Shown piece after piece: positions 17,823-48,471 of a stretch of DNA of 64,000 nucleotides. The DNA is from an uncultured Candidatus Saccharibacteria bacterium (lineage in GTDB: Bacteria; Patescibacteriota; WWE3; UBA101185; UBA10185): the NCBI GenBank assembly GCA_964540135.1, contig CAZILK010000002.1, positions 33,074 through 97,073 on the forward strand, read 5' to 3'. The position numbers and the translations under genes are program-made. The notes under the pieces are model-generated. The model did not search any database, was not told the DNA's origin, and worked only from the letters and a program-made list of their open reading frames with translations. Positions within the stretch are counted from its first letter, which is position 1. Every line of letters starts with the position of its first letter.

Positions 17823-17844
17823 TTAAGTTTTAGAAGATAGAAAT

Positions 17845-17930
17845 GCCGGGATACCGAAGCGGCCAAACGGGGCAGACTGTAAATCTGCTGGTGTAAACCT
17901 ACACAGGTTCGAATCCTGTTCCCGGCACCA
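17845..17930 (+). tRNA. tRNA-Tyr (anticodon GTA), long variable arm
   Basis: 86 nt. Anticodon loop CTGTAAA, T-arm GGTTCGAATCC, encoded CCA. Confidence 0.85.
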
Positions 17931-17947
17931 ATTTATCTTCTATAAAA

Positions 17948-18022
17948 GCCTGGGTAGTTCAGTGGTAGAACGCCTCCATGGTAAGGAGGAGGTCGAGGGT
18001 TCAATTCCCTCCTCAGGCTCCA
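17948..18022 (+). tRNA. tRNA-Thr (anticodon GGT)
   Basis: 75 nt. Anticodon stem CCTCC/GGAGG with loop ATGGTAA. T-arm GGGTTCAATTCCC, CCA. The Thr-Tyr-Thr order resembles the thrU-tyrU-(glyT)-thrT cluster. Confidence 0.85.
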
Positions 18023-18121
18023 CTCATTAAATAAAATAGCGAAGCATAACAAGCAGCATTTGACATAAAGTATACGCGGTGGTATAAGAACTATAGGTCC
18101 AATTTATGCGCAGGAAAGCTT

Positions 18122-19018
18122 ATGGATAATTTTGGAAAATTTCTAACAATAACAACCTTTGGCTTCACTATAGCCGCTTGTGGGGTACGGCCTGAAACTC
18201 AGGAAACGAACACACAGCCAGACACTGAACTCCCAGAAGAACAACCCCCAACAGCAGCTCCAGCAAATCAAGCTGGCACTAATAGCGATGCTCTAACTGC
18301 CGCAACATTACCAGATATCATGAGGTATTCAGGTCTATCAGATAAACCATATACTCGCGATGTTATACTCAATAGAATGAACGGTATCCCCACAATTATC
18401 GAAATAGCCGGCATAGACCCTAATATTTATATTGAGCGTACAACAATTGCACGAGTTTTAGATTTGTGTGACGAATTAGAAGGTATACCGCTGTTTGACG
18501 ATGAAAGTCAGGACTACATTGAAGGCGAGGTTCTTCGACTAACTAGCAGAGAAGGTCTGCCTGTTACGCTAACTTTGTTTAATGAGGATGCTGTAAGAGA
18601 GGGTATGGCAGGAGACAGTGAAGCGACAGAATCTGGTAGCTTTGCATTACTTCAGGATGTTCCAATGCCTGTGAGATTCGAAGAATACGCCAATGGGACA
18701 CAAATTATAATCCCTGTAGGAGCAGGTATTACTGTCACCGCGTATAATGGAGAGATAGCATCAAATCTTTTTAAAGCCAGGCTTGCTACACAAACCGGCG
18801 ATATAACTCGTGATGTAAATTTAACCAACTTAATTGCTGAAAGCCTCGGTGTTGCGTACGCTATTGCCGCACAAGGTGAAAGCTACGAAAGCTACTTGAT
18901 GTGGTTAAGAATAAGTTCTGCTGATGATTACGGACGACTTGCTGACGGAAGACCTCTAGTGGTATCACCAAACACATACGCAAAGCTTAGCTTACCCGCG
19001 ATACTAACTTACCAGTAA
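18122..19018 (+). CDS. Hypothetical lipoprotein (signal peptide plus lipobox 'TIAAC'), markedly higher GC than the flanks
   Basis: N-terminal hydrophobic segment ending IAAC. Pro/Thr/Gln-rich linker. GC about 50% versus about 38% background, judged by eye. Confidence 0.5.
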   Translation: MDNFGKFLTITTFGFTIAACGVRPETQETNTQPDTELPEEQPPTAAPANQAGTNSDALTAATLPDIMRYSGLSDKPYTRDVILNRMNGIPTIIEIAGIDPNIYIERTTIARVLDLCDELEGIPLFDDESQDYIEGEVLRLTSREGLPVTLTLFNEDAVREGMAGDSEATESGSFALLQDVPMPVRFEEYANGTQIIIPVGAGITVTAYNGEIASNLFKARLATQTGDITRDVNLTNLIAESLGVAYAIAAQGESYESYLMWLRISSADDYGRLADGRPLVVSPNTYAKLSLPAILTYQ

Positions 19019-19089
19019 GTACTATCTGCAAAACAGAATTGCTTGTATTCCAAAACAATCATATAATCATTAAGTCTTTCGCGAGTAAA

Positions 19090-19163
19090 AGGGGCGTGGT
19101 GAAGAGGTATCACAGAGGTCTCCAAAACCTTTATCGGGGGTTCGATTCCCTCCGCCCCTGCCA
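19090..19163 (+). tRNA. tRNA-Trp (anticodon CCA)
   Basis: 74 nt. Acceptor AGGGGCG/CGCCCCT, anticodon loop CTCCAAA, T-arm GGGGGTTCGATTCCCTCC, CCA. Confidence 0.8.
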
Positions 19164-24289: not shown

Positions 24290-25207
24290 TTGATAGTACA
24301 TCAATTGCTACTTATAATGCAAGACATGCACTATTCAAAAGGTGTTGTCTACATCTTAATATCAGCGGTCTTTTACGCCTCGTACGGCGTATGGTCTAGG
24401 CTGATGGGTTCATCTTTTGGTGAGTTTACCCAAGCCTGGACACGAGGACTATTCCTACTGGTAGTTATTCTGATACTCAACAGTAAATTTAAGTTCTTAA
24501 AGAAGTTTGGTAAGAAAGATTTGCCTTGGTTTATGCTAATTGCACTTGCCGGAGGTATTAATCAAGCTCCTTATTACTTTGGGTTTCAACATCTGCAAAT
24601 TGGTACTGCTACCCTACTCTTTTATGCCTCTCTTGTTGTTGGAGGATATGTTATGAGTAAGGTATTTCTACAAGAGAAAATTAACTCAACCAAGCTTTTT
24701 AGCCTTGGACTTTCAATTCTTGGCATGGTTTTAATTTACAAATTTTCACTCAGTACTGGGCAGCTTTTGGCAGCCGTTTTAACCTGTATCGCAGGGATTC
24801 TTGGAGCAGCAACTGTTGTACTTACAAAAAAACTTTCGGGAAATTATTCCGAGCTTCAAATTATGATTGGTTATTTTGCATTACAAGTAGTGATTAACCT
24901 CCCGCTTGCAGTTCTCAGTCACGAAGTAATGCCCTCTTTCTCAAATACAACAGCTTGGGTCGCACAAATCCTCTATGCATTTAGTATGCTTGCAGCCAAC
25001 TATGCTGTGATCGAGGGTTTTAAACATGTAGACGGAAGTATCGGCAGCTTAATCGGACTTGCTGAAATACTCTTTGGTGCTTTCTTTGGCTGGCTGTTGT
25101 TCTCAGAACTAATCTCAGCTTTTACTTTAATGGGTGGAATTATAATTATTGCTGCAGCAGCATATCCAAGTTTAAGAGCTAGAACTAAAGATGATCTTAA
25201 CTACTAG
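24290..25207 (+). CDS. EamA/DMT-superfamily transporter (10-TM)
   Basis: Two repeated 5-TM halves, with hydrophobic periodicity typical of EamA. Confidence 0.6.
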   Translation: MIVHQLLLIMQDMHYSKGVVYILISAVFYASYGVWSRLMGSSFGEFTQAWTRGLFLLVVILILNSKFKFLKKFGKKDLPWFMLIALAGGINQAPYYFGFQHLQIGTATLLFYASLVVGGYVMSKVFLQEKINSTKLFSLGLSILGMVLIYKFSLSTGQLLAAVLTCIAGILGAATVVLTKKLSGNYSELQIMIGYFALQVVINLPLAVLSHEVMPSFSNTTAWVAQILYAFSMLAANYAVIEGFKHVDGSIGSLIGLAEILFGAFFGWLLFSELISAFTLMGGIIIIAAAAYPSLRARTKDDLNY

Positions 25208-26048
25208 GTCTTTCTGATGCTCGCCTTCCCCATCCTGTACCTGGATCAAAGCGGTCGGTATCATATGGTGGTGGTACTGTAAGATCGTCTATAAGCCATG
25301 TATACCTATCTCCGTGTTTCAGCACTGTGTCAGATCTTTTTAAGTTGGGATAAAATCTGTCCGCAACCTTGTAATACAAAAATGTTAGGATGTAATCGCC
25401 GTTTGACCAGGTAACTTTTGGTAATTGCCTTGAAAGATTAAGCTCATCCAAAGTTGGAACCTCAAAAACACGTATTTTTCTTGTACCTGGTAGTCGGATT
25501 AAGTTAGTAGCCGCTATATAGGCCTCGGATATAGCGCTTTGTTCAACACCCATCTCTGTTAACTTTTTGACAATATTACCAGTCTGTTCGCCAAAAATTC
25601 TTAGATCATCAGCTACTACAAGATCATAACCTTTAAGGCTGCCCAGATCAGCTATTTCGTCTACGCTTATTGTTGAAAATCTATCTGGAGACCTTGTTGC
25701 TAGCTTGTCAGCTATCCAAACCCTACTCCCTCTCTCATCGCCATCATGAATCAACAGTATAGGCAGTTCACTAGATTCAAGATTAGCAGCTAAAACATCC
25801 AATGCATCTTCAAAAGTTTTATCATCTATGCATCTTATATTTGACCGTATGCCTTCTAAGCAGGTATCTGTGCCTCCGCTATTTAAAAATGCATCTCTAA
25901 AGTCTTCGAGCAGATCTAATCGCAACTGCTCAGGAGGGTTTTCTGGACTAATCAGTGGAGCGAGGCTCTCGCCATTTAAGCCAAGAGTCTCAAAAGATAC
26001 AGCTGCTGCTTCAGCGTATCGTACTTCATTATGCGCGGTAAGTATCAT
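25197..26048 (-). CDS. Hypothetical protein with a phosphoribosyltransferase (type I PRTase)-like segment. Higher GC.
   Basis: 'YDLVVADDLRIFGEQTGNIVKKL' resembles the PRPP-binding loop (hydrophobic-DD-x-x-TG-T) of type I PRTases. GC is clearly elevated. Confidence 0.4.
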   Translation of the reverse strand: MILTAHNEVRYAEAAAVSFETLGLNGESLAPLISPENPPEQLRLDLLEDFRDAFLNSGGTDTCLEGIRSNIRCIDDKTFEDALDVLAANLESSELPILLIHDGDERGSRVWIADKLATRSPDRFSTISVDEIADLGSLKGYDLVVADDLRIFGEQTGNIVKKLTEMGVEQSAISEAYIAATNLIRLPGTRKIRVFEVPTLDELNLSRQLPKVTWSNGDYILTFLYYKVADRFYPNLKRSDTVLKHGDRYTWLIDDLTVPPPYDTDRFDPGTGWGRRASERPSS

Positions 26049-26139: not shown

Positions 26140-26700
26140 TCAATGTTCTTGGTTTAAAGCATCATCAAGCACCATTCTAAGATATTCAGATTTATTTACT
26201 CCTAACTCTTTTGCTTTACTTTCAAGATGAGCTTTATGTCTATCGGAAAGAAATAGGTTAAACCTGTTATGCAGGGTTTCGGTTGATATTTTGGTGATGA
26301 AATTTTCAAGAATCTCCTCATACGTATACTCGTTATATTTAGCACCGTGGAAATACCTGCTCTTAATCTTTTGGGAATAATCTTCATGTACTGACAGGCA
26401 TAACACATGTTTATTTGATTGAATTGCAAGAGTTGCTTCGTGCCCTAGTTGAAAATCTTCTTCACTAATTTCCATAATCACAGCATTTGCCCACTCAATC
26501 CCCTTTTTGATAGCAAGATAATGCTCTTCTTGTTTGGTCTTGAGATGTGAAGTTTTAGAAGTATTTAAGAGTGCTTTGTAGTTATTCTTTTCAGGAGATG
26601 TAACTACAAGATGCATTTCATCTAATTTTTTAAGTATTTTATCGTAATTTGCTTGATAGGACTTCTTTCCTCTAAACGATGCTGTAAAAAAGATGTTCAT
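26140..26700 (-). CDS. Nucleoside 2-deoxyribosyltransferase-like (NDT/DNPH1-fold) domain fused to a C-terminal ribbon-helix-helix DNA-binding domain
   Basis: N-terminal 'MNIFFTASFRG' plus a catalytic-Glu region 'VIMEISEEDFQLGHEATLAIQSNKHVLCL' (NDT-like). C-terminal 'DRHKAHLESKAKELGVNKSEYLRMVLDDAL' is CopG/Arc-type RHH. Start set at the internal Met. Confidence 0.5.
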   Translation of the reverse strand: MNIFFTASFRGKKSYQANYDKILKKLDEMHLVVTSPEKNNYKALLNTSKTSHLKTKQEEHYLAIKKGIEWANAVIMEISEEDFQLGHEATLAIQSNKHVLCLSVHEDYSQKIKSRYFHGAKYNEYTYEEILENFITKISTETLHNRFNLFLSDRHKAHLESKAKELGVNKSEYLRMVLDDALNQEH

Positions 26701-26763
26701 ACATATGTATGTATACACTAGTATATACAGGAATGCAAGAACAGTGGTATATAGTATATACAT

Positions 26764-27220
26764 ATGATTACAGGTATCGGAACACATATTAAAGTTAGGG
26801 ACTTTAAAAAATCAGTGGCTTTTTATAAAGCACTTGGCTTTAAGAAAGTCTTTGAATGCGGACCAAAATGCCCCGTGAAAGAAGCTTATAGCGGGATGAT
26901 TTTTGAAACACGGTGGCTGTAAGCTAGAAATCGCTGATGGTCACAGAGCTGTTAAAAAAGAGGTGTTTTTAGAACAAGTTACAAGTTCAAAAATATCGTT
27001 AGTAATATATGTCTCAACTCTTGGAAACGTGATCAAGTCTTGCGAACGAGCCGGCATTACAATTGCTGTAAAACCAAGACATTTCTACTGGAATACACTT
27101 GAGCTTGTTATAAAAGATCCTGACGGAGTTGTTCTAGTATTTGTAGCGCCATACATTAAACGCGAAGCTAAAAAACTAAACGCAGATGAAACATATTCTG
27201 TACAGAGCATGAGTCCTTAA
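26764..27220 (+). pseudogene. Glyoxalase/VOC-family gene disrupted by a +1 frameshift near a T4 run (~26900)
   Basis: ATG at 26764 encodes 'MITGIGTHIKVRDFKKSVAFYKALGF...', a VOC N-terminal beta-alpha-beta-beta-beta module, and ends at TAA 26920. The rest of the domain ('...KLEIADGH...PRHFYWNTLELVIKDPDGVVLVF') continues in the +1 frame from 26903. Confidence 0.5.
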
Positions 27221-27239: not shown

Positions 27240-27779
27240 ATGGAGCTTTGCAAAATTAAAACAAAATGTTTTAATTACTGTATGACATCTGAAACGAACA
27301 GTGACAAAGAAGTAGTACACGCTGAAAGAGAGCCTTCTGTGGACATGAGCGCTGCGTGTCTTTTGTATCTTATTCAAAATAGGGTTGGCGTAAAAGAAAG
27401 TATTTTTGTAAATTGGTCCCAAAGTAATGCAAGCGGTGCAAAAATAAGTGACGAGCCGGGACTTCTTGAGGAAATAATAAATGTTGCGAATGAAGGCCCT
27501 AACACAGACGTGGATGAAGACAGAGTACGAGCGTGGTTCGGCGTATTAAAATATAACGCTGGTGCTAGTTTTATATCGATTGAACAGGCACGAGGTCTGG
27601 GGAAAAGGGTAGGTGTTTTAATAGATTATTTACAAGACAGAGGTGTTGGCGCTGAGAGAGAACTAGCGACTTTAAACGAGGAAAATATCGGTCCAACACT
27701 TAGAAATGAGATTTTAAAGGCTACGCCTTCGTACGGAATATCTCCTAGTCAGTCAGAACAGATCTCCTCACTAGTGTAG
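27240..27779 (+). CDS. Hypothetical protein
   Basis: 179-aa ORF with no recognisable motif. The start may be an internal Met. Confidence 0.3.
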   Translation: MELCKIKTKCFNYCMTSETNSDKEVVHAEREPSVDMSAACLLYLIQNRVGVKESIFVNWSQSNASGAKISDEPGLLEEIINVANEGPNTDVDEDRVRAWFGVLKYNAGASFISIEQARGLGKRVGVLIDYLQDRGVGAERELATLNEENIGPTLRNEILKATPSYGISPSQSEQISSLV

Positions 27780-28880: not shown

Positions 28881-30044
28881 CTAGTTAGTCGATTGGCTGA
28901 CTGAAATCCCTCCAAAGTCGGTATATATCAGTGAACCTTTTAGAGGACCTGAGGTGACTATAATATGTTCATATTCCTCTGGAGTTCCCCCATTTTCAAA
29001 AACTATAGATCCAGTTGAATATAACATCTCTCGTAGCTCATCTGGAGTGTAATCAGGAATTGAAGTTGAGAATGTTACAGAATTTCCAGCAGCTCCAAGT
29101 ATTCTAAAGTCAACCTTGACATGAGAACGCCCATTTGAATCAACTGCAGCTTCACCTATATCTACTAGCGATTCTGGTAACGCGTCAACTTGTTCTGGGC
29201 TTAAATGCGTACCAGCTATCGGCAAGTGCAACCTACCCTCATCATCAACGTACGCACCAGCTTCGTTCAGTATACTCATAACATCGTCTCTATCGTCTTC
29301 CCCAACTATCTTTTCCTGCAATCTAGTGAAAAAACTGTCCTCAGCTGGATCCGGTGTGTACTCTGCTACTGGGTGCAAGTCCAAAGTACTAGGCATAGAT
29401 ACACCATTTAATTCCGCAATTTCAACATAACCATATCCGACCATGCCACCCACATGAGTCCAAGCTTTAAAATCGTACCTATTTGGATATTTATTACTTG
29501 GAAGGACTATTAATAGATTACCTTCACTGGCTGCTCGTGCAATTTTTGTTGAAGACTCATCATCCAGCTCACCAGATACTGTAATACTTAATATGTGTTT
29601 TTCACCGCCTGGTTCTTCAAACTCAAGTCCTATTTCAGTTACTAGCGGATTACCAACATAATCTGAAGAGTGCATATGTTTAAAACTAACTTCAATAGGC
29701 AGTTCAAGAGAAAAATACCCATCTCCAGGTTTAATGACTTTTCGACTCAGCAATTCTTGTAAACCGTCGGTAAACACACCATCTCGTGACTGGGCTTCGC
29801 CATCAAAGCGCATTGAAGGCCTAGTATGATCGGCAAGAGGGTTAGGTACCTTGGCATTCTCAATCATCTCAGCCAAAGCTTCTTGTCTTTCTTCAAGAGG
29901 TATAGAGGACTCAGGCCTGATGCTTGTAACTGCATCTGCAACCTTGTTTTCACCATAGATGTACCCCCCGAGAGCCGCGGCTCCTCCTAGACTTGCTATA
30001 AATAGTGCTGCCTTAGCCTTATCAGCATTCGAAAATTCCGACAT
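28881..30044 (-). CDS. Hypothetical secreted/membrane-anchored acidic protein
   Basis: N-terminal hydrophobic helix, then a 360-aa acidic domain. Elevated GC. No catalytic motif recognised. Confidence 0.45.
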   Translation of the reverse strand: MSEFSNADKAKAALFIASLGGAAALGGYIYGENKVADAVTSIRPESSIPLEERQEALAEMIENAKVPNPLADHTRPSMRFDGEAQSRDGVFTDGLQELLSRKVIKPGDGYFSLELPIEVSFKHMHSSDYVGNPLVTEIGLEFEEPGGEKHILSITVSGELDDESSTKIARAASEGNLLIVLPSNKYPNRYDFKAWTHVGGMVGYGYVEIAELNGVSMPSTLDLHPVAEYTPDPAEDSFFTRLQEKIVGEDDRDDVMSILNEAGAYVDDEGRLHLPIAGTHLSPEQVDALPESLVDIGEAAVDSNGRSHVKVDFRILGAAGNSVTFSTSIPDYTPDELREMLYSTGSIVFENGGTPEEYEHIIVTSGPLKGSLIYTDFGGISVSQSTN

Positions 30045-30176: not shown

Positions 30177-30767
30177 TTGGCTAAATATAAGCTAGAAAGG
30201 ATAAGCACACTTATTCTAGAAGTCCTGCTTGAATTCAACTACAATCCATATATGACAACGCTTGGTCACATAACATCATCATATATACTAGCTAATGCCT
30301 CAAGACTTGTAGGAGTCAGTCCAACAGATAGTGAGATTCTAATTACAGTACTTGCAGGTAATATACTTGATCTTGATGTAATTGCCGGTGTATTGCTCAA
30401 AAAACGAGGCGATGAACACCACAACTTCATAACACACTCGCCTTTTGGTGCACTTCTTATCTATATCCCTATCGCAGTATTACTTGCCTACTTTGAAAAT
30501 TACTTCCTTCTTATTTTAATACCCCTCGCATTCCTCTTACACTTGGTACTTGATGACATAAGTTACTGGTTTTACCGTTTTGGATTTCAACAAATTAGCA
30601 AATATCCCCAAATAAATTGGCTGTATCCTGTCAGAAAAGGACGAACTGACAATTGGTCCCCATCCAATAGATACGCAATCATCACCTACTTTAAAAAAGC
30701 TCGAGTAAATGTTGCTATTGAGCTTATTTTTTTAGTAGTTGCAGTATTACTTTTTATCTATAGCTGA
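30177..30767 (+). CDS. Membrane-bound metal-dependent hydrolase-like protein (DUF457/YdjM-like), tentative
   Basis: Polytopic membrane protein with His/Asp-rich loops ('GDEHHNFITHSPF'). Confidence 0.35.
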   Translation: MAKYKLERISTLILEVLLEFNYNPYMTTLGHITSSYILANASRLVGVSPTDSEILITVLAGNILDLDVIAGVLLKKRGDEHHNFITHSPFGALLIYIPIAVLLAYFENYFLLILIPLAFLLHLVLDDISYWFYRFGFQQISKYPQINWLYPVRKGRTDNWSPSNRYAIITYFKKARVNVAIELIFLVVAVLLFIYS

Positions 30768-30804
30768 TTCTCAAATTAAGCATAGACTGCAGAGCAGTCT
30801 GGGT

Positions 30805-31674
30805 ATGGAAGTAAATATCGATTTGTTTTACAATCCTCAAATGAGTACCCTCGGAACAAGAGAAGATAATATTCAAATTGGCAATATAATTTCCTCAAAT
30901 TACGGACTTACAATAAGCTTTATTGAGCTTATCAGCTGGGGCTATACGACAAATTGCTTCTATATAAAAACAGATGAGGGAGATTTTGTTGCGCGTGTTT
31001 CTGATTTTAGTGAAGAGAAAGTACTAGATATTAAACGAGATATGCTCATCTCAAGTGTACTAGGAAGTGAGTTTTTACTGCCAACATTTCTTAAAACAAC
31101 CAATGAAGAAGATCTTGTAACCTTTACAGATCTTGATAACAAAAAAAGACTGCTTAGGATATCCGATCACAAAGAAGGAGTCATGCCTTTTGCTCTTGAT
31201 GAAGAGCTACTTATTAAAATAACTGAATATCTTTACAAGTTACATAATACTGTCCCTGTAACCGCACTTAACCAGCTCCGCGACTCGGAACTGGTCCCAA
31301 GCATCTCAAGTCCCCATCAAGTACTACTACATGGAGATTTAACACCGTCAAATGTACTTGTTGCACATGGGGAGATTGTTAGAGTTGTGGACTTTGAAAT
31401 GGCACACTTTGGTCCCCCAGAGTATGATCTTGCCAAAACCGCACTCTTTTCTTGGTTTTACTTAAATAAAAAAGAATTTACAGAGATTACTGAAATAGTA
31501 ACAAGAGCATATGCAAAGAATTTAAACAAAGACCTGCTTAATGAATACTCTAAAACACATCTCAAAACGCATCTAGATAATATTTTAGCTCATGAGGGTT
31601 CTTATCAGAATCCTGCAGATTTCCAAAGAGATGTAACCTTCACCAAATCTATGCTCTCACGCCTCCTGAGTTAA
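30805..31674 (+). CDS. Aminoglycoside-phosphotransferase/choline-kinase-like (APH-fold) kinase
   Basis: Catalytic loop 'LLHGDLTPSNVLV' (HGDxxxxN) and metal-binding 'VVDFEMAHFG' (DFE). Confidence 0.6.
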   Translation: MEVNIDLFYNPQMSTLGTREDNIQIGNIISSNYGLTISFIELISWGYTTNCFYIKTDEGDFVARVSDFSEEKVLDIKRDMLISSVLGSEFLLPTFLKTTNEEDLVTFTDLDNKKRLLRISDHKEGVMPFALDEELLIKITEYLYKLHNTVPVTALNQLRDSELVPSISSPHQVLLHGDLTPSNVLVAHGEIVRVVDFEMAHFGPPEYDLAKTALFSWFYLNKKEFTEITEIVTRAYAKNLNKDLLNEYSKTHLKTHLDNILAHEGSYQNPADFQRDVTFTKSMLSRLLS

Positions 31675-33204
31675 TCTTAGAGGCTGGTCTTGCATAAACT
31701 TAAGTCCAAGCTTAACTGCCGTCTCAGCCTTTGCTAACTGGCGTCCTAAGTCTGCTGCTGCACCAAGATCTGAAATCAACATATCCTTTATTGCAAGAGC
31801 ACACATATCTCTTGCAACTTTTGGTTTAGTCCCGTCTTCAACAAACTCAGCAAGCTTAGTGCTTCCTTCGGGGTTAAAAAACTTCAAAACAATATCTTTA
31901 CCATTTAACTCAACAGTGTAGTAGCCTCTTGGATCCCATTGGCAGGTTCTTCCTGTATTGTCATTGTCTTTCACAATCTTTAAACTATCGCTCCAATCAG
32001 TATCATAGATTTCAGCTATATGAGACACTGTTGTTAGAACCCCCATATCTTGGCCAATTTCAACAGCTAGTCTCTGCTGTAAAGTTCTTAATGCAAAAGC
32101 ATTAAGAGGCCATGCTCCATAAATATCATTGTTGCGAAAAACACAAGTCATATTGAGCTTTCCTTCGATACATTGGGCTAGTATCATCACAAGACAAGGT
32201 ACTTTCCATCCTTTTGTTTGCCCATCTGCTTTGATTTCAGTCTTTTTTGGCGGAAAATTATCAATATGCGGTTTCCAAAGTACTGCCAGTGCCCCCCTGT
32301 CATAAGGATATCTTGTTAACTTCTCAGCCATCTGTTTATATTGATCAACCTTGTCCCAAGTAAAAATACGCTCACCATATGTATATGCTTGCCCTTGTAA
32401 ATCAATATCAAAAAATCCCTTAATGTATAAATCTAACCCCTCTTTACCAAAATTTAAAAACTCCGGTAATACTGGGGTGGTTGGATCTTCTTTTTCAACA
32501 ACAATACTTAGGTTATGAACCTCTTTAACATTTGAATACATTCCGGGAACTTCGACCCCAAATCTGTTAATAACTTTAAGTGCATCTATCCATGCATCAG
32601 AAATTGTTTCTCTTCTAATTTTAAAAACTGAGGTGTCTGACGGAAATTTAGAAATCACTTCTTGTTTTGGTTCAGGAAATAAAATAGGTTTTGCAAAAGC
32701 TTCTTTTTGAACAAAAGTTTTTGTTAATTCTTTAATTTTAGTAAGAGGTTGCATTCTTAAGTCAAAGATCTCCACAGCCTGCTTAAGATCAGAAAGAGCC
32801 TCCGGAGTAAATTCTTTATCCAATAATGCTTCGGGATCGCCGTTAATTGAGAAGCCTTTTCGATCACCGCTTTCACCAAAACATTCGGTGAAACCATTGG
32901 CAAAAAACTTTAAAAGCGCGTCCCCACTCCCCTGTCGATCAACTCCACAAAGAACAATATAGCGGATTGTTGGATTTGCAAAAATATTTCGAAACATCGG
33001 ATTTATTCCGCGTTTAGTATAAAGCTGACCACACGCACAGTAATCAACCCCGTCTTTATCCAACACATCTGCAACGCTTTCTTTTGGCATCCACAAAGTC
33101 GCAATACCAATATTGGAGGCTTTGTTTTTTATAATCAAGGCATCTTTAAAATAGATCGGCCAGTTGGCAATTTTCTCTGCATCACTAACAGTTAATAAGT
33201 CCAT
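31657..33204 (-). CDS. Thymidylate-synthase-fold enzyme (ThyA/dUMP-C5-modifying family) with a ~200-aa N-terminal domain of unknown function
   Basis: The C-terminal half aligns by eye to E. coli ThyA. 'RGALAVLWKP' matches RRIIVSAWN. 'VPCLVMILAQCIEGKLNMTCVFRNNDIYGAWPLNAFAL' matches the APCH...QRSCDVFLGLPFNIASY region. The nucleophile Cys and the uracil-specifying Asn are present. The N-terminal 200 aa are unrelated to ThyA. Confidence 0.65.
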   Translation of the reverse strand: MDLLTVSDAEKIANWPIYFKDALIIKNKASNIGIATLWMPKESVADVLDKDGVDYCACGQLYTKRGINPMFRNIFANPTIRYIVLCGVDRQGSGDALLKFFANGFTECFGESGDRKGFSINGDPEALLDKEFTPEALSDLKQAVEIFDLRMQPLTKIKELTKTFVQKEAFAKPILFPEPKQEVISKFPSDTSVFKIRRETISDAWIDALKVINRFGVEVPGMYSNVKEVHNLSIVVEKEDPTTPVLPEFLNFGKEGLDLYIKGFFDIDLQGQAYTYGERIFTWDKVDQYKQMAEKLTRYPYDRGALAVLWKPHIDNFPPKKTEIKADGQTKGWKVPCLVMILAQCIEGKLNMTCVFRNNDIYGAWPLNAFALRTLQQRLAVEIGQDMGVLTTVSHIAEIYDTDWSDSLKIVKDNDNTGRTCQWDPRGYYTVELNGKDIVLKFFNPEGSTKLAEFVEDGTKPKVARDMCALAIKDMLISDLGAAADLGRQLAKAETAVKLGLKFMQDQPLRLTQEA

Positions 33205-33659
33205 TTATCCCCCCAAACTTCCTCACCTGCTATTTTTATAACCTCAATATTATTTGACTTGAAAAGACTTAGAGAAGCGTTGCCGTCATTTATATAGTCA
33301 GTCATGTAATAAAGTTTTGAGATACTTGCTTTAACGAGAAGTCTTGCACAGGCGGGACATGGGAACGTTGTCACATAAATCTCAGTTCCCTTAAGACTTA
33401 TCCCCTTCGCTGCGGCTTGACCTACAACCGATGCTTCTGCATGAATAGAACATGTAATCTCAGGACATCTCCCGGCTGTCAGTTCTCTTTCCCTCCTATC
33501 ACAAACTCCCTTTTGACAATATATCTCTCCGGGAAGAGTTTCGTTAAAGCTGGTGAGAATTTTAGTACCATCTCTCACAACAATACAGCCAACTTTATGA
33601 AAACAAAGCGAGTTATCACACAGGAGACAGGCAGATTTCATTATTTCTTTAGGCAGCAT
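33192..33659 (-). CDS. Deoxycytidylate (dCMP) deaminase, ComEB-like
   Basis: Zinc motifs 'HAEASVV' (H-A-E) and 'PCPACARLL' (PCxxC). It is ~155 aa, typical of dCMP deaminases. Overlaps the ThyA-like gene by 13 nt. Confidence 0.8.
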   Translation of the reverse strand: MLPKEIMKSACLLCDNSLCFHKVGCIVVRDGTKILTSFNETLPGEIYCQKGVCDRRERELTAGRCPEITCSIHAEASVVGQAAAKGISLKGTEIYVTTFPCPACARLLVKASISKLYYMTDYINDGNASLSLFKSNNIEVIKIAGEEVWGDKWTY

Positions 33660-33661
33660 AA

Positions 33662-34861
33662 TTATTTTTTAAGTTTTGGCTCTTCGGCGAGGATTTTATG
33701 ATACTTCTCCTCATCCATACATTCTTTAAATATTTGCTTAACTTTAAGTCCTGCTAACTTATCGATTATACCAGAGGACGAGGTATTGAATGCCTGTCTT
33801 TTTCCAAGTACCACCTGCCCTTTATAGGACTTAACAAGCTTATACTCTTTACTCTTCTTATATCCATTGTTCCAGCTCTCATCAACAGTATAAAACGCAT
33901 CTGGTTTTAGCTCTCTTAAGCACTCAAGGATCGGGCCTCCATCAAAGATTACAACGTAATCAACTGGATCTAAATGGCACAGAGTATATGCACGTGAGAA
34001 CTGTGAAATAATTGGCCTACCTATCCCCTTTGTATACCGAATAACATCATCAGAAGGTATGCCAACAACAAGTATGTCTCCGCACAAGCCCGCTTGCTCA
34101 ACAAACCTTGCATGACCAATATGGAATAAATCAAACCCCCCTGCAACAAATGAGATCTTTTTATTCCTGTGAAGCTTACGAATCTTACTAAGACTATCTA
34201 TGCCAACAACAGACATTGTTGGATCGTAAGCTTTCTTGGAAGATGGAGTTTGAGGTCCAAAGTCTGCAGGGCGTAAATCCTCGCCAGGAGTTAACGAAAA
34301 ATTCCTCACTTTTTCTTTTAAATAATATTCTAAAATCTGAATAACTCTGATATTTGCTATATGCTCAATAAGATCAGTTGTGCTGTAGTACGGTTTATGA
34401 ACTGGAGCAATTATAATTTTTGTTTTGGTCATTTTAGTAACTTCTTTATCTGTTGCACTACGAATACCGGTGTCCCAGCTAAGTTCTACTGTATAAAAAA
34501 TATCAGGCTTTAATAAAAGCACGACATCATATGGATTTTTTTCATCAACCGAAACTACATAATCTACAACTTTTAAAAAAGTGAGAAGTTCTTTTCTTAT
34601 CTCTTCCGAGATTAGTGGGAACTCAGAACCTTTTGCTTTTTCTGAAAAATCTGTTGATACTCCAACAACCAGAATGTCTCCCTGTGCTTTAGCTTCAGCC
34701 AAATACCTGCATTGCCCGGGGTGTAAAAGGTTGTATGAACCGATTGTGAAAACAATCTTTTTGTTTTGTTTTTTTAATTTTGTTGATAACTGTGGAAGCT
34801 GAGAGAGATCAAGTAGTTTTGTTTTACGTGTTAAATGATTTTTAAGCTTGGTTTTGTACAC
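33662..34861 (-). CDS. Tandem cytidylyltransferase-like (two CTP_transf_like domains) protein
   Basis: Domain 2 has the canonical 'GGFDLFHIGHARF' HxGH. Domain 1 is degenerate ('IGSYNLLHPGQ'). The two-domain layout is like ECT/TagD-type cytidylyltransferases. Confidence 0.6.
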   Translation of the reverse strand: MYKTKLKNHLTRKTKLLDLSQLPQLSTKLKKQNKKIVFTIGSYNLLHPGQCRYLAEAKAQGDILVVGVSTDFSEKAKGSEFPLISEEIRKELLTFLKVVDYVVSVDEKNPYDVVLLLKPDIFYTVELSWDTGIRSATDKEVTKMTKTKIIIAPVHKPYYSTTDLIEHIANIRVIQILEYYLKEKVRNFSLTPGEDLRPADFGPQTPSSKKAYDPTMSVVGIDSLSKIRKLHRNKKISFVAGGFDLFHIGHARFVEQAGLCGDILVVGIPSDDVIRYTKGIGRPIISQFSRAYTLCHLDPVDYVVIFDGGPILECLRELKPDAFYTVDESWNNGYKKSKEYKLVKSYKGQVVLGKRQAFNTSSSGIIDKLAGLKVKQIFKECMDEEKYHKILAEEPKLKK

Positions 34862-34904
34862 AGTGGGGATTATTATATATAATAACTTTTGTTTATCAAT
34901 AATT

Positions 34905-35402
34905 ATGAAACAAACTAAAGACCCTTATTCGAATGAAGCTCAGATGACTGCACGAATCGGGAACGAGTGGTACGATACTATCTCCTCAACAGTTACAAAA
35001 TGCCCTTTTTGTGATTTGAAAGCTAAATATCTTGTTAAAGACTGGGACAACTGCGTACTTACTGTTAATACTTTCCCTTACATTGATGGCCACCTGATGG
35101 TTGTTCCAAAAAGACATGTTGAACGGTTAACTGATCTAAACAAAAAGGAGTGGGCAGAAGCGCAAGAACTTTTATCAAAAGGGATGGATGTTTTGCGTAA
35201 ACATTTTGAGTATGTTGACTTCAATATACTGTACAGAGAAGGCGGCAAAGACTCAGGTTCAAGCCTTAAACACCTCCACATTCACATTATCCCAACACGA
35301 GGCCTATTAACGTATCGACTTGGTGGTTTTAATTTTGACTTTCAAAAGATCAACTTCCCGCCAGTAGAAACTGCTGATAAATTACGACAGTTGTACAACT
35401 GA
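34905..35402 (+). CDS. HIT-superfamily protein, GalT/Ap4A-phosphorylase-like branch
   Basis: Zinc knuckle 'CPFC' and the histidine motif 'HLHIHII'. Confidence 0.55.
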   Translation: MKQTKDPYSNEAQMTARIGNEWYDTISSTVTKCPFCDLKAKYLVKDWDNCVLTVNTFPYIDGHLMVVPKRHVERLTDLNKKEWAEAQELLSKGMDVLRKHFEYVDFNILYREGGKDSGSSLKHLHIHIIPTRGLLTYRLGGFNFDFQKINFPPVETADKLRQLYN

Positions 35403-38038: not shown

Positions 38039-38848
38039 TCAAATATGCAAGTGGTTCATGAGTAAAAATCTAACAACCAAAGGACCCATTCCTCCTGGAG
38101 ACGGAGAAACAACTCCTAAATGATCTAAGGAATGATTTAAATTCAAATCTCCAGTCGTTTTGCCATTTAACACAGAGGACCCAAAATCAATTACATTACA
38201 CCCAGATTTAATATCTTGGGGATTAACAAGATTTGGAATCCCAGCACTTAAAATTATTAGGTCATAATCAAGTCTATCTCCAGCGTTGTAATTAATATTA
38301 ATTTCAACAGAGTAACCTTGAGATTTTAAGAAATAACTAGCAGGTTTTCCAACCAATTCTCCATACCCTATAATACAAGCTCTAAGAGGCTCGGCTTTTG
38401 GCGGGAGCATTGTACCCAAGAAGTACCGGACCCCCCGAACTACGGGAGATTCAAACTCACTTACACCTGTATAAAATAGGTTTTTTGACTCTTTACCTAA
38501 AATATCTATATCCTTTGCTTGAGGCAATAAATCAAGCAGTGGGTACAAAGATGAGTCAGGTAGTGGTAGTTGGACTATAATACTACCCACGCTGGCGTCT
38601 TCTGAGAGCTTAAGCAACAGCTGTTTGGTGATCTCAGCATCAGACTGACTTTTATAGTCTAACCTATATAGTCCTGCGGGAATACCGAGTCTTTTACAAA
38701 CTTTGAGCTTTAAAGACACATACTTTTCAGAAGACTCATTGTCCCCTATTTGGATTATTGCGAGTTCTTTTTCTTTAAAAGTTTTAGGGGCATTGAGTAT
38801 CTGTTCTTCTAACTTTTCTGCATGTAACTTACCATCAAACAGGATCAT
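38039..38848 (-). CDS. folD: Bifunctional methylenetetrahydrofolate dehydrogenase/cyclohydrolase
   Basis: 'KYVSLKLKVCKRLGI', 'VQLPLP', 'SPSPGGMGPLVV' FolD motifs. Confidence 0.9.
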   Translation of the reverse strand: MILFDGKLHAEKLEEQILNAPKTFKEKELAIIQIGDNESSEKYVSLKLKVCKRLGIPAGLYRLDYKSQSDAEITKQLLLKLSEDASVGSIIVQLPLPDSSLYPLLDLLPQAKDIDILGKESKNLFYTGVSEFESPVVRGVRYFLGTMLPPKAEPLRACIIGYGELVGKPASYFLKSQGYSVEININYNAGDRLDYDLIILSAGIPNLVNPQDIKSGCNVIDFGSSVLNGKTTGDLNLNHSLDHLGVVSPSPGGMGPLVVRFLLMNHLHI

Positions 38849-41820: not shown

Positions 41821-42310
41821 TCCCACTCTTTTTAGACAATATACGCTAAAGTAAAGCAAAAACTTGACAGTTTTAAAACTCGGAACTAATATTTTGGCAT
41901 GGAAAAACCAATCACAAGCCTAACCGATCTCATTGTACTTTTAACTAATATCACCACAGTAGCTTGCAACGTTTTTAATTCCACTTGGCGCCCTGCCCGC
42001 CCTCATCTCTCTAATAGTATATTTTCTAAGCAGTAACCCAAACACAAAGAAAACTACAAAGAGGATTGTATTTGCGTATCTCCTTGTATTCCCAGTTATG
42101 ATCGCATTTATAACCCTAAGAGTTATAGTGTTGAATATAGTCAAATAGACCTTAATTAAGTGGTAATTGACAACCGCCTCCCCTTCCTTTAAACTGACCT
42201 ACAGCCAAAGACAGCAAGGGCGAAAGCTTAATTATCTTGCCGAGGTAAAATACAGTTCGTGTTTTAACTCACCTTTGGTGGGTTTTTTTAATTGGATTTA
42301 AGGAGATCGT
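41821..42310 (+). promoter_or_regulatory. Long rplA-rplJ intergenic region, putative L10(L12) autoregulatory leader
   Basis: A 490-nt untranslated spacer ends in a strong SD (AAGGAGA) before rplJ. Many bacteria carry an L10-leader RNA here. The structure was not verified. Confidence 0.35.
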
Positions 42311-47055: not shown

Positions 47056-48459
47056 CTAAGATTTTGAGGCTAGTACTTTTTTGTACAAACTTTTGTACTC
47101 AGCAGCACTCTTGTCCCAACTAAAATCAGTCTTCAGAGCATTCTGCACCATCTTGTCATACTTTCGCTTATCGTTAAAGAGCAGTGCAGCTTTCTTTATG
47201 GTGTTTGTGAGTTCAGATGAAGAATAGGTCTTAAACTTAAAACCATTCACAGAATCTGTAACTGAATCCTTCAGCCCTCCGGTATCTCTGACAACAGGGA
47301 GGCAGCCGTAATACATAGCAAGCATCTGAGTTAAACCGCACGGTTCAAATCGTGAGGGTATTAGCAAGAAATCACTAGCTTGATATAGTTCTTCAGCTAG
47401 TGTTACATCAAAACTTATATTTACACTTACTCTCTTGCCATACAATCTATTAGATTGTTCGGAAAACTCAAGCAGTTTCTTCTCCCAATGAGGATCACCG
47501 GTACCAAGAAGTATGAAAGCACCAAACTTTGCCACAATATCATGCAAAGATTCATACAATATATCAATTCCCTTTTGATTTGGATCTAGTCTGGAAACAA
47601 ATGCAAACAATGGAAGTTTTGAATCAATTGCTAGTCCTAGTTTGTCGTACAATTTTGTCTTGGCGGCAGCCTTACCTTTTTTCCAATCAGCTAGTTCAAA
47701 GCCTCTTGTCAAAATCGAATAATCAATCCCATTGAGAATACCTGTTAATCGGCTACGTCTGTCATATAATATACTGCTTAAATCCCCACCAATATCTTTG
47801 TAGAGAATTTCACTTGCATAAGAAGGTGAAACAGTATTTATGTAATCTGCAGACATTAGAGCCTCTTGCATGAAGTTGAGAAAGCCGTCTTGAATATCAT
47901 AATAAACAGAAGGATGGTTAGAAACATTGATATCTATATCTTTTAAGATCGAGCTTGAAGTATTCCCTTGATATGAAATATTATGAATTGTGAATAAGAC
48001 TGGCGGTTTTGAAGTACTTAGATCGTCAGTCAGCATATGCGGAATCATCCCAGTGTGCCAATCATGACAATGCACAATGTCGTAGATATTAAAGCCGTGA
48101 TTGATAAAGTGCACAACAGCTTTACAAAAAAACGCGTAAGGAACAACTTCATCGACAATATAGCCGCGTCTGACATCAAATAGCTTGTCGTTTCTGACTA
48201 AGAAAACATCAACTGTTGATTGAGGTAATTTAGTTTTGTAGATTGAGGTCACAACAGTTTCACCGTTAAATGGCACCTCTAGATCACAGTGTTTATATAT
48301 CTTGTATTTTGAGACTTCAATCGCGCTATAAAATGGAACAATGACATCAACATCAAGTTTTAGTTTTGATAATGCTTTTGGAAGCGAACCGATAACATCT
48401 CCAAGTCCACCCATTTTTACAATGGGAGCAACTTCTGAGGCAGCAAATAAAACTTTCAT
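47056..48459 (-). CDS. glgA: Glycogen/starch synthase (GT5)
   Basis: 'MKVLFAASEVAPIVKMGGLGDVIGSLPKAL' is the canonical GlgA N-terminus (KxGGL motif). C-terminal GT-B nucleotide-binding domain. Confidence 0.85.
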   Translation of the reverse strand: MKVLFAASEVAPIVKMGGLGDVIGSLPKALSKLKLDVDVIVPFYSAIEVSKYKIYKHCDLEVPFNGETVVTSIYKTKLPQSTVDVFLVRNDKLFDVRRGYIVDEVVPYAFFCKAVVHFINHGFNIYDIVHCHDWHTGMIPHMLTDDLSTSKPPVLFTIHNISYQGNTSSSILKDIDINVSNHPSVYYDIQDGFLNFMQEALMSADYINTVSPSYASEILYKDIGGDLSSILYDRRSRLTGILNGIDYSILTRGFELADWKKGKAAAKTKLYDKLGLAIDSKLPLFAFVSRLDPNQKGIDILYESLHDIVAKFGAFILLGTGDPHWEKKLLEFSEQSNRLYGKRVSVNISFDVTLAEELYQASDFLLIPSRFEPCGLTQMLAMYYGCLPVVRDTGGLKDSVTDSVNGFKFKTYSSSELTNTIKKAALLFNDKRKYDKMVQNALKTDFSWDKSAAEYKSLYKKVLASKS

Positions 48460-48471
48460 GTTAAAAGTATA

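What the first reader, a model, noticed from the sequence alone, without database searches (positions are those of the whole stretch)
31657..35402. Pyrimidine module: tandem cytidylyltransferase, dCMP deaminase and a 515-aa ThyA-fold enzyme with an unexplained N-terminal domain
Three minus-strand genes are tightly packed. The tandem-CTase and deaminase genes are separated by 2 nt. The deaminase and ThyA-like genes overlap by 13 nt. A GalT/HIT-like nucleotidyl-transfer/phosphorylase gene diverges from them. A dCMP deaminase feeding dUMP to a ThyA-fold enzyme is a coherent dTMP route. The enzyme retains the nucleophilic Cys ('VPCLVM') and the uracil-specifying Asn ('PLNAF'). However, it carries a ~200-aa N-terminal domain absent from canonical ThyA, which is about 264 aa. 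Elsewhere such extended ThyA homologues are dNMP hydroxymethylases or pyrimidine-hypermodification enzymes. The cluster may therefore make a modified pyrimidine nucleotide, or may be a novel-architecture thymidylate synthase in a genome lacking canonical thyA/thyX. The co-operonic double-domain cytidylyltransferase has one degenerate HxGH, which is unusual beside nucleotide metabolism.
Basis: partly seen in the sequence, partly recalled or inferred. Interest (0 to 1): 0.7.

Follow-up and report, generated by a model that had tools for sequence, protein, structure and literature searches.

The report
Three-domain thymidylate synthase of Patescibacteria
This candidate-phyla-radiation bacterium makes its DNA thymine precursor with a thymidylate synthase flanked by two uncharacterised extra domains, in a conserved operon with dCMP deaminase; it is most likely the cell's ordinary dTMP enzyme in an unstudied architecture, not a DNA-hypermodification enzyme.

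Summary
The 515-aa protein has three domains, not two.

The core keeps Cys146, Arg166, Asp169, Asn177 and Tyr94 (E. coli numbering). That is the signature for dUMP plus a folate-type cofactor. It is not the signature of dCMP or CMP hydroxymethylases, nor of the flavin-dependent 5-hydroxylases.

The same architecture occurs in at least 220 species-level genomes of Patescibacteria and DPANN archaea, and in 211 protein clusters at 50% identity. Its conserved neighbours are dCMP deaminase (52 of 86 loci), dUTPase, SHMT, FolD and PyrG. One homologue is fused to dCMP deaminase itself.

I conclude it is a genuine dTMP synthase, already labelled "thymidylate synthase" in databases. I found no paper on its architecture. 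The role of the two accessory domains is unknown. A tandem nucleotidyltransferase, a HIT protein and an APH-type kinase stay linked to this operon through gene-order shuffling and are also unexplained.

Verdict: new variant of a known kind, moderate interest.

The parts
31657..33204 (-). 515-aa three-domain thymidylate synthase gene (whole ORF)
   Evidence: ORF. Pfam PF04208 + PF00303 + PF14251. 128 full-architecture homologues. AF2 model pLDDT 94.3, pTM 0.79.
32701..33168 (-). N-terminal MtrA-fold domain (aa 13-168). The cobalamin ligands are replaced.
31990..32619 (-). ThyA catalytic core (aa 196-405), methanogen/archaeal type
31687..31935 (-). C-terminal PF14251 (PterinBD-DUF4346) domain (aa 424-506): three beta strands and two helices
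33192..33659 (-). dCMP deaminase (ComEB/DCTD type), translationally coupled to the TS gene (13-nt overlap, G-rich SD-like run before the TS ATG)
   Evidence: PF00383 E 2e-15 and TIGR02571 E 8e-22. HAE and PCxxC motifs. Junction sequence. Adjacent in 52 of 86 related loci.
33662..34861 (-). Tandem nucleotidyltransferase (two CTP_transf_like / RfaE-domain-II-like domains: HPGQ then HIGH). Substrate unknown.
   Evidence: PF01467 with two stretches; TIGR02199 at 183 bits only as the sum of both domains. Patescibacteria-dominated family of ~400-aa proteins (every organism name is Patescibacteria, WWE3 or Saccharimonadales). By longest-contig length it appears to share at least 21 contigs with the TS family. 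Motif conservation. Within 5 kb of the TS gene in 39 of 86 loci.
34848..35402 (+). HIT-family nucleotide hydrolase/transferase with intact histidine triad. Divergent here, co-directional in most relatives.
   Evidence: PF01230 E 3e-15. Linked in 33 of 86 loci. Fused to a CTase domain in L003 and P0205.
30739..31674 (+). APH-family small-molecule kinase (HGDxxxxN and DFE motifs). Convergent; its 3' end overlaps the TS gene by 18 nt.
   Evidence: PF01636 E 4.5e-14. Only weak NCBIfam hits. The convergent position is conserved in 25 of 86 loci; in L003 the gene is co-directional upstream.
38039..38848 (-). FolD (methylene-THF dehydrogenase/cyclohydrolase), same strand, 4.8 kb upstream. Context for a folate-type C1 donor.
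   Evidence: PF00763 + PF02882. FolD and SHMT lie immediately downstream of the TS gene in L003, L041 and L057.

Best explanation
The 515-aa protein is the organism's thymidylate synthase. The co-translated deaminase makes dUMP from dCMP. Cys337 of the archaeal-type ThyA core attacks dUMP, and dUMP is methylated with the methylene group of a reduced pterin, most likely 5,10-methylene-tetrahydrofolate.

The catalytic core is embedded between two accessory domains:
- An MtrA-fold Rossmann-like domain that has lost MtrA's cobalt-ligating His and its Glu partner, but keeps a strongly conserved loop pocket.
- A DUF4346 domain.

These two domains also occur next to each other without a TS (NCBIfam NF002128). 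DUF4346 also ends an archaeal dihydropteroate-synthase-like protein (TIGR00284). I therefore infer that they form a pterin-enzyme accessory module that binds, positions or retains the cofactor.

What is shown: the architecture, the catalytic-residue signature, the family breadth and the operon context.
What is inferred: the TS activity itself, the identity of the C1 carrier, and any role of the accessory domains.
For: Domain calls and folds.

Active-site mapping to E. coli ThyA. C337, R357 and N368 are invariant in 88 of 88 sequences and D360 in 87 of 88.

Diagnostic-residue rules from PMC13326640: Asn177 means dUMP and Asp169 means a folate-type cofactor. No acidic residue sits at the Leu143 position; it is K or R.

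Nearest family is methanogen-type ThyA, E 2e-36, against 5e-6 for the bacterial ThyA model.

Breadth:
- 220 species-level genomes.
- 211 clusters at 50% identity with E <= 1e-30.
- All three domains are strongly conserved.

Context in 86 distinct loci: dCMP deaminase 52, dUTPase 14, SHMT 5, FolD 5, PyrG 4.
- An operon of deaminase-TS-SHMT-FolD in L003.
- A four-domain fusion with dCMP deaminase, P0298.
- A DPANN locus with dCTP deaminase, deoxyribosyltransferases and adenylate kinase nearby.

The accessory domains pair elsewhere: NF002128 and TIGR00284.
Against: - No enzyme of this architecture has been assayed. The papers read here state that archaeal and methanogen ThyA biochemistry is barely studied (PMC9931769 and PMC9012536).
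- The TIGR03283 score (125 bits) is below that model's 174.55 cutoff.
- E. coli Arg127 is Gly here, His147 is Leu, and Leu143 is Lys/Arg. The active site is therefore not canonical.
- One locus (L080) carries a canonical thyA-folA pair right beside the fused gene, which could mean the functions are not redundant.
- The rest of this genome was not checked for thyA or thyX.
- Nothing directly shows what the accessory domains bind.
Confidence: 0.75

Rival explanations
1. The ThyA-fold core is a dUMP hydroxymethylase or other C5-modifying enzyme. The cluster, with its kinase, nucleotidyltransferase and HIT genes, would then make a modified pyrimidine nucleotide.
For: - The residue at the Leu143 position is not hydrophobic.
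- A kinase, a nucleotidyltransferase and a HIT gene are conserved neighbours with no assigned role.
Against: - The Leu143-position residue is basic, not the Asp/Glu reported for hydroxymethylases.
- The family is a conserved gene of small cellular genomes across Patescibacteria and DPANN. Its partners are dUTPase, dCMP deaminase, SHMT and FolD.
- No second TS was found in 85 of 86 loci or in the window. If this enzyme did not make dTMP, the dTMP source would have to lie outside the stretches examined.
- The nearest sequence family is the methanogen ThyA.
Confidence: 0.06
2. The accessory domains make the enzyme self-sufficient. They would bind a redox cofactor or otherwise re-reduce the dihydropterin product in cis, or supply the hydride, so that the cell needs no separate dihydrofolate reductase. 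This would be a functional analogue of DHFR-TS or of ThyX chemistry built on a ThyA fold.
For: - Both catalytic partners of DUF4346 are pterin enzymes: TS and a DHPS-like protein. From general biochemistry, both yield 7,8-dihydropterin products; that was not tested here.
- The N-domain is a Rossmann/flavodoxin-like fold with an invariant loop pocket.
- folA was found beside the gene in only 1 of 86 loci.
- A conserved Cys421 sits at the entry to the C-domain.
Against: - No dinucleotide- or flavin-binding motif was recognised.
- No fold match to any reductase.
- folA presence or absence could not be surveyed genome-wide.
- CPR genomes with folA are reported (PMC11974145).
Confidence: 0.1
3. The MtrA-like domain still binds a corrinoid, and the protein does cobalamin-dependent methyl transfer. 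The methyl group would pass from methyl-pterin through cobalt, as in MtrA, rather than by classical methylene transfer.
Against: - His84 is Ser in 111 of 116 homologues and never His.
- Glu54 is Lys.
- MtrA's GAIPF(Y/F)xEN meander motif is absent.
- The ThyA core keeps the complete Cys/Arg/Asp/Asn machinery for methylene transfer.
Confidence: 0.03
4. The core is a flavin-dependent TS-fold monooxygenase like the phage 5-hydroxy-dCMP synthases.
Against: - The diagnostic D169N and N177D substitutions are absent. Asp360 is present in 87 of 88 sequences and Asn368 in 88 of 88.
- Sequence identity is only 17%, and no sequence-level hit was found.
- The high Z may simply reflect two compact TS folds of similar size: 9iqc is 234 aa and the TIGR03283 model matched here is 201 positions. 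That was not tested.
Confidence: 0.02
5. The long ORF is an artefact: a fusion of separate genes through a sequencing or assembly error.
For: Two relatives have the gene broken. L014 has an in-frame TAG in the linker between the N-domain and the TS core, and L031 has a frameshift.
Against: - The identical 515-aa protein occurs on three independent assemblies.
- More than 200 full-length relatives from bacteria and archaea.
- Confident single-chain model.
Confidence: 0.01

Closest known systems
Methanogen/archaeal-type thymidylate synthase (NCBIfam TIGR03283, thy_syn_methano)
   Same: Best-matching family for aa 196-405 (E 2e-36, covering model positions 3-199 of 201). Short ThyA core with Cys, Arg, Asp and Asn catalytic residues. 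A stand-alone 215-aa copy of this core sits 4 kb from a fused copy in a Woesearchaeote (L045).
   Different: Scores 125 bits against the 174.55 cutoff. The TIGR03283 model is 201 positions long, the size of this core alone, whereas here the core sits between an MtrA-fold domain and DUF4346. The hosts are Patescibacteria and DPANN with folate-type neighbours (FolD, SHMT), not methanogens.
Canonical bacterial/eukaryotic ThyA (PF00303; E. coli ThyA, 264 aa)
   Different: Only 12-19% identity. Arg127 is Gly, His147 is Leu, Leu143 is Lys/Arg. The N-terminal third is not alignable by profile. About 250 extra residues in two additional domains.
Bifunctional DHFR-TS of protozoa and plants
   Same: A roughly 500-aa polypeptide in which a Rossmann-like N-terminal domain precedes a TS domain. 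The precedent is a TS fused to the enzyme that recycles its pterin product.
MtrA / cytoplasmic MtrA homologues (PF04208; PDB 5laa, 5l8x)
   Different: The cobalt ligand His84, its partner Glu54 and the GAIPF(Y/F)xEN meander motif are all replaced. The domain is fused to a TS.
NF002128 (390-aa 'MtrA'-annotated proteins) and TIGR00284 (archaeal dihydropteroate-synthase-like protein)
   Same: NF002128 holds the MtrA-like and DUF4346 regions in the same order. TIGR00284 ends in DUF4346.
   Different: Neither contains a TS. In the protein here the TS core lies between the two regions. I know of no functional study of either family; that was not searched.
TS-fold C5-modifying enzymes: T4 dCMP hydroxymethylase, MilA, phage 5-hydroxy-dCMP synthases (PDB 6l18, 5jnh, 9iqc)
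   Different: They carry N177D with L143D/E (dCMP/CMP hydroxymethylases) or D169N (hydroxylases). This family has Asn, Lys/Arg and Asp at those positions. It is a chromosomal gene of cellular organisms.

Membership tests
ThyA-type thymidylate synthase superfamily (PF00303) | TS fold | tested here: met
   [not shown]
ThyA-type thymidylate synthase superfamily (PF00303) | Catalytic nucleophile Cys146 in a Pro-Cys motif, plus Arg166 for phosphate binding | tested here: met
   P336-C337 and R357 are invariant in 88 of 88 sequences.
ThyA-type thymidylate synthase superfamily (PF00303) | Asn177 (selects uracil) and Asp169 (pterin/folate-type cofactor) | tested here: met
   N368 in 88 of 88 and D360 in 87 of 88. 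Rules from PMC13326640.
ThyA-type thymidylate synthase superfamily (PF00303) | Arg126'/Arg127' pair donated across the dimer, and a hydrophobic Leu143 that excludes water | tested here: inconclusive
   R303 (R/K) aligns with Arg126. Gly304 replaces Arg127. Lys/Arg334 sits at the Leu143 position. This rests on a sequence-profile alignment only.
ThyA-type thymidylate synthase superfamily (PF00303) | Catalyses dUMP + CH2-H4-pterin -> dTMP + H2-pterin | not testable with these tools
   Needs enzymology or complementation.
Methanogen-type ThyA equivalog (TIGR03283) | Score at or above the curated cutoff of 174.55 bits | tested here: not met
   122-125 bits. It is the closest family, but this protein is not a member by NCBI's criterion.
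MtrA corrinoid protein (PF04208 / TIGR01111) | MtrA Rossmann-type fold | tested here: met
   [not shown]
MtrA corrinoid protein (PF04208 / TIGR01111) | His84 lower axial cobalt ligand, hydrogen-bonded to Glu54 | tested here: not met
   Ser93 and Lys64 sit at the aligned positions. The family has Ser in 111 of 116 and no His. Ligand roles from PMC4915002.
MtrA corrinoid protein (PF04208 / TIGR01111) | GAIPF(Y/F)xEN meander motif and C-terminal membrane anchor | tested here: not met
   The aligned segment reads GDPEALLDKE. The domain is followed by the TS core, not by a transmembrane helix.
dNMP hydroxymethylases (T4 gp42, MilA type) | N177D (cytosine substrate) and an acidic residue at Leu143 | tested here: not met
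   Asn368 and Lys/Arg334.
Flavin-dependent 5-hydroxy-dCMP synthases (9iqc/9iqu type) | D169N diagnostic substitution with N177D | tested here: not met
   [not shown]
dCMP deaminase (ComEB/DCTD type, PF00383) | Zinc motifs HAE and PCxxC, and the family score | tested here: met
   PF00383 at 57 bits against a cutoff of 25. Both motifs are in the translation. TIGR02571 is below its cutoff at 78 against 219 bits.
HIT superfamily (PF01230) | Histidine triad HxHxHxx | tested here: met
   HLHIHII. PF01230 at 57 bits. The branch (Hint, Fhit, GalT or phosphorylase) is not resolved.
RfaE domain II / heptose-1-phosphate adenylyltransferase (TIGR02199) | Single-domain score above the cutoff, and association with a heptose kinase domain | tested here: not met
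   The 183.5 bits are reached only by adding two domains. No PfkB kinase domain is present. True HldE proteins appear only as distant hits at E 1e-15 to 1e-19.

The most novel reading that the evidence does not exclude
The MtrA-like and DUF4346 domains are a previously unrecognised pterin-handling module. It would make this ThyA-fold enzyme independent of a separate dihydrofolate reductase, either by holding the folate as a quasi-prosthetic group and re-reducing it in cis or by supplying the hydride. That would explain how ultrasmall, cofactor-scavenging Patescibacteria and DPANN sustain dTMP synthesis. In the same operon, the conserved nucleotidyltransferase-HIT(-kinase) set would be a new route delivering dCMP or dUMP precursors.
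Probability: 0.1. Interest if true: 0.85.

Novelty: new variant of a known kind. Interest (0 to 1): 0.5.

Why it matters
Thymidylate synthesis is essential, is a drug target, and is usually described as a ThyA-or-ThyX dichotomy. Here a third recurring form appears: an archaeal-type ThyA core built into a three-domain protein. It seems to be a standard dTMP enzyme across much of the candidate phyla radiation and DPANN archaea. These organisms have minimal genomes and, as generally described, depend on hosts for cofactors.

No experiment exists for this architecture, or essentially for archaeal ThyA at all. Working out what the MtrA-like and DUF4346 domains bind would:
- assign a function to two uncharacterised domain families that also accompany a DHPS-like pterin enzyme;
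- show which C1 carrier these organisms use;
- show whether they need a dihydrofolate reductase.

The co-travelling nucleotidyltransferase, HIT and kinase genes point to an unassigned step in pyrimidine deoxynucleotide supply.

Tried and rejected
- **Literature.** Searches for DUF4346, PF14251, slr0651, MJ0757, MJ0107 and TIGR03283 found no paper. Searches combining thymidylate synthase with MtrA, Patescibacteria or CPR found nothing on this architecture.
- **PDB by sequence, C-domain profile.** Only a weak WGR-like hit, 2ra8 at E 0.027. I did not build on it.
- **Model coordinates.** They are not exposed, so I could not check whether the conserved N- and C-domain residues face the TS active site.
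- **Corrinoid hypothesis.** Considered and set aside on the missing His84, Glu54 and meander motif.
- **Flavin-hydroxylase hypothesis.** Considered and set aside on Asp169 and Asn177.
- **Assigning the tandem nucleotidyltransferase.** HldE-C, TagD, an ECT-like Kennedy-pathway enzyme, RibL-type FAD synthetase and NMNAT were all considered. Profile scores do not discriminate, so no assignment was made.
- **APH kinase.** NCBIfam gives only weak hits restricted to the catalytic loop.
- **Genome-wide co-occurrence with thyA, thyX and folA.** Not possible.


Full report
**1. The observation**

- 31657-33204(-), 515 aa.
- 33192-33659(-), 155 aa, overlapping the 515-aa gene by 13 nt.
- 33662-34861(-), 399 aa, 2 nt from the deaminase gene.
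- 34848-35402(+), 184 aa, divergent. Its likely real start is the ATG at 34905.

Pfam and NCBIfam assign these as follows. The 399-aa protein has two tandem CTP_transf_like domains. The 155-aa protein is a dCMP deaminase with HAE and PCxxC. The divergent gene is a HIT protein with HLHIHII.

The quoted motifs VPCLVM and PLNAF are present. The first nucleotidyltransferase domain reads HPGQ and the second HIGH. Relatives mostly have xPGH in the first domain.

The TS start codon lies inside the deaminase's last codons, behind a G-rich run. That arrangement suggests translational coupling.

Two things were missed. The first is a C-terminal PF14251 (DUF4346) domain in the 515-aa protein. The second is a convergent APH-family kinase gene at 30739-31674(+) that overlaps the TS 3' end by 18 nt.

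The window is about 38% G+C. It carries MurA, MurB, FolD, MreB, GH57 and starch-synthase genes. The closest homologues are labelled Saccharibacteria, Saccharimonadales, WWE3 or Patescibacteria.

**2. Anatomy of the 515-aa protein**

Three family models hit non-overlapping regions:
- MtrA (PF04208) at aa 13-168.
- Methanogen-type thymidylate synthase (TIGR03283) at aa 196-405. E is 2e-36 and the score is 125 bits, below the 174.55 cutoff.
- PF14251 at aa 424-506.

An AlphaFold model built on an 88-sequence alignment is confident (pLDDT 94.3, pTM 0.79).

Alignments to L. casei ThyA, to Pfam PF00303 in some homologues, and to phage TS families run on into aa 417-457. The first strands of the 'DUF4346' region therefore align with the C-terminal strands of canonical ThyA. 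The two long helices are the real addition.

**3. The catalytic core**

Profile-profile alignment to E. coli ThyA maps the residues as follows:

| E. coli ThyA | This protein |
|---|---|
| Tyr94 | Tyr276 |
| Arg126 | Arg303 |
| Arg127 | Gly304 |
| Leu143 | Lys334 |
| Cys146 | Cys337 |
| His147 | Leu338 |
| Arg166 | Arg357 |
| Asp169 | Asp360 |
| Asn177 | Asn368 |
| Tyr209 | Tyr400 |

In the 88-sequence alignment, Cys337, Arg357 and Asn368 are invariant and Asp360 is present in 87 of 88. Residue 334 is mostly Arg or Lys.

A 2026 study of phage TS homologues (PMC13326640) gives experimentally grounded rules. N177D switches the substrate to dCMP. L143D/E accompanies hydroxymethylation. D169N marks the flavin-dependent 5-hydroxylases.

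This family has Asn, a basic residue and Asp at those three positions. That reads as dUMP with a folate-type cofactor, and it does not carry either alternative signature.

**4. The N-domain is MtrA-like in fold only**

In MtrA, cobalamin is held by His84, which is hydrogen-bonded to Glu54, and by a meander with the consensus GAIPF(Y/F)xEN (PMC4915002).

In the phmmer alignment to 5laa, those positions are Ser93, Lys64 and GDPEALLDKE. Across 116 homologues, position 93 is Ser in 111, Ala in 3 and Thr in 1, and never His.

The domain is nevertheless under strong constraint. W38, G59-Q-L-Y-T-K64, G66, R72-N73, N77-P78, G87, D89 and S93-G94 are 90-100% conserved. By the model's secondary structure, these residues lie in or next to the loops that follow strands beta1-beta3. 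That is the usual ligand crevice of such folds and the place where MtrA holds its corrinoid.

So a ligand-binding or contact site is likely, but His-ligated cobalamin is not the ligand.

**5. The two accessory domains belong together**

NCBIfam NF002128 is a 390-aa family annotated 'MtrA'. It matches the N-domain at model positions 105-242 and the C-domain at 286-369. The pair therefore exists contiguously without a TS.

TIGR00284, the archaeal dihydropteroate-synthase-like protein, ends in the same C-domain.

Both catalytic partners are pterin enzymes, and MtrA itself receives a methyl group from a methyl-pterin. That is the basis for inferring a pterin-related accessory role. It is an inference, not a demonstration.

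**6. Family size and distribution**

- The word-indexed search found 128 homologues, nearly all 460-530 aa with all three Pfam domains.
- The exhaustive search of 1.84 billion cluster representatives found 211 with E <= 1e-30, 721 with E <= 1e-10 and 1404 with E <= 1e-3.
- A scan of one genome per GTDB species found 220 encoding relatives.

The hosts include many Patescibacteria classes: Saccharibacteria, WWE3, Shapiro-, Dojka-, Kerfeld-, Collier-, Falkow-, Wolfe-, Abawaca- and Peribacteria, Microgenomates and Parcubacteria. They also include DPANN archaea (Woese-, Aenigm- and Micrarchaeota). A few MAGs are labelled Chloroflexi, Thaumarchaeota or Methanosarcinales.

Where sources give a name, it is 'thymidylate synthase' or 'hypothetical protein'. 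The identical 515-aa protein is present on three independent assemblies. The fusion is therefore not an artefact.

**7. Genomic context**

I translated all six frames of 89 fetched loci plus the window and searched them with the window's proteins and with reference ThyA, ThyX, FolA and Dut.

Counts within 5 kb of the TS gene, in 86 distinct loci:

| Neighbour | Loci |
|---|---|
| dCMP deaminase | 52 |
| CTP_transf_like nucleotidyltransferase | 39 |
| HIT | 33 |
| APH kinase | 25 |
| dUTPase | 14 |
| SHMT | 5 |
| FolD | 5 |
| PyrG | 4 |

The arrangement differs between clades:
- In the clade closest to the window, the order is nucleotidyltransferase > HIT > deaminase > TS, followed by a convergent APH gene.
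- In more distant Patescibacteria, it is deaminase > TS > dUTPase.
- In L003 the genes are APH > CTase > CTase::HIT fusion > deaminase > TS > SHMT > FolD. Six of the seven are contiguous, with overlaps or a 9-nt gap; FolD follows SHMT after a short opposite-strand ORF.
- In L009, PyrG overlaps the nucleotidyltransferase gene at the head of the same string.

A 733-aa homologue, P0298, adds a dCMP deaminase domain to the three-domain protein.

A DPANN locus has dCTP deaminase, two deoxyribosyltransferases and adenylate kinase nearby. Another has a nucleotide-kinase::dCMP-deaminase fusion about 0.8 kb downstream.

This is the context expected of a housekeeping dTMP synthase. dUMP would come from dCMP deamination or dUTP hydrolysis, and the C1 unit from serine through SHMT and FolD.

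**8. What argues for caution**

- No member has been assayed. [quoted passage not shown]
- L080 carries the fused gene immediately beside a convergent folA and a canonical 311-aa thyA. This could be an in-situ displacement caught in progress, or a sign of non-redundant roles.
- L045 has a stand-alone 215-aa TS core 4 kb from the fused gene.
- Whether this genome lacks thyA, thyX, folA and dut could be checked only within the 64-kb window, where none was found.

**9. The linked nucleotidyltransferase, HIT and kinase genes**

The tandem nucleotidyltransferase belongs to a family of ~400-aa proteins. Every organism name attached to it is Patescibacteria, WWE3 or Saccharimonadales.

Judged by matching longest-contig lengths in the two hit tables, it shares at least 21 contigs with the TS family.

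It reaches the RfaE-domain-II cutoff only by summing two domains. True HldE proteins are distant.

The set stays with deaminase and TS through changes of order (L032, L055, L056), of domain number (single-domain in L055 and L056) and of fusion state (CTase::HIT in L003 and P0205). That pattern suggests a functional tie to pyrimidine deoxynucleotide supply.

I could not assign a reaction, and none of the following was tested:
- a CTP/dCTP-consuming activation and hydrolysis pair that yields (d)CMP;
- a Kennedy-type kinase plus cytidylyltransferase;
- a cofactor adenylyltransferase.

**10. Verdict**

The 'coherent dTMP route' and 'novel-architecture thymidylate synthase' readings are supported. 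The 'modified pyrimidine' reading is not.

The protein works like a ThyA. It belongs to the ThyA superfamily by fold and by catalytic residues. It is not a member of the curated methanogen equivalog by score, and its N-domain is not a functional MtrA.

It is already catalogued and loosely named in databases, but I found no description of its architecture. I rate it a new variant of a known kind, with interest about 0.5.

The value lies in the unexplained accessory module and the co-travelling genes. It does not lie in any evidence for unusual DNA chemistry.

Noticed in passing
window 33662-35402 and 30739-31674; L003 7239-9541; L009 1091-4424; L055 2599-6299; L032 9531-13676: A CTP_transf_like nucleotidyltransferase (tandem or single), a HIT protein and often an APH-type kinase stay clustered with dCMP deaminase, the TS and sometimes dUTPase or PyrG. 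The clustering survives changes in gene order, and there is a CTase::HIT fusion. No reaction linking them to dTMP synthesis is known to me.
   Followed up: partly
L080 9980-12841: A DPANN-like MAG (labelled Methanosarcinales) has the three-domain TS immediately followed by a convergent folA (160 aa) and a canonical bacterial-type thyA (311 aa). This is the only one of 86 loci with either gene.
   Followed up: partly
L045 5380-6024 and 9980-11428: A Woesearchaeota contig encodes both the three-domain TS and, 4 kb away on the other strand, a stand-alone ~215-aa TS core that matches only residues 196-400 of the query.
   Followed up: partly
P0298 (L092 572-2773): A 733-aa protein from a groundwater 0.1-um metagenome fuses MtrA-like, TS, DUF4346 and dCMP deaminase in one chain.
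   Followed up: yes
P0334 (786 aa), P0347 (837 aa), P0373 (862 aa), P0331 (625 aa): Longer relatives carry extra sequence. P0334 and P0347 each show two DUF4346 stretches. P0373 and P0331 have 150-270-aa N-terminal extensions with no Pfam match.
   Followed up: no
L014 7436-8920; L031 4939-6352: In two relatives the gene is broken. L014 has an in-frame TAG in the N-domain/TS linker, and L031 has two overlapping ORFs that imply a frameshift. These could be a natural split, pseudogenisation or sequencing error.
   Followed up: no
[not shown]
   Followed up: partly
window 28881-30044 (-): A 387-aa ORF with a hydrophobic N-terminal segment has no Pfam or NCBIfam match. ORFs at 25197-26048, 26140-26787 and 27240-27779 have no Pfam match either.
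   Followed up: no
window 47056-53056 (-): A glycogen-type cluster contains two starch-synthase-like glycosyltransferases and two GH57 genes in a row. One GH57 carries a UVR motif.
   Followed up: no
window 17748-19163, 58315-58575, 42187-42299: There are six tRNA genes (Thr-TGT, Tyr, Thr-GGT, Trp, Arg-CCT, Ser-TGA) and an L10 leader upstream of the rplJ region.
   Followed up: no
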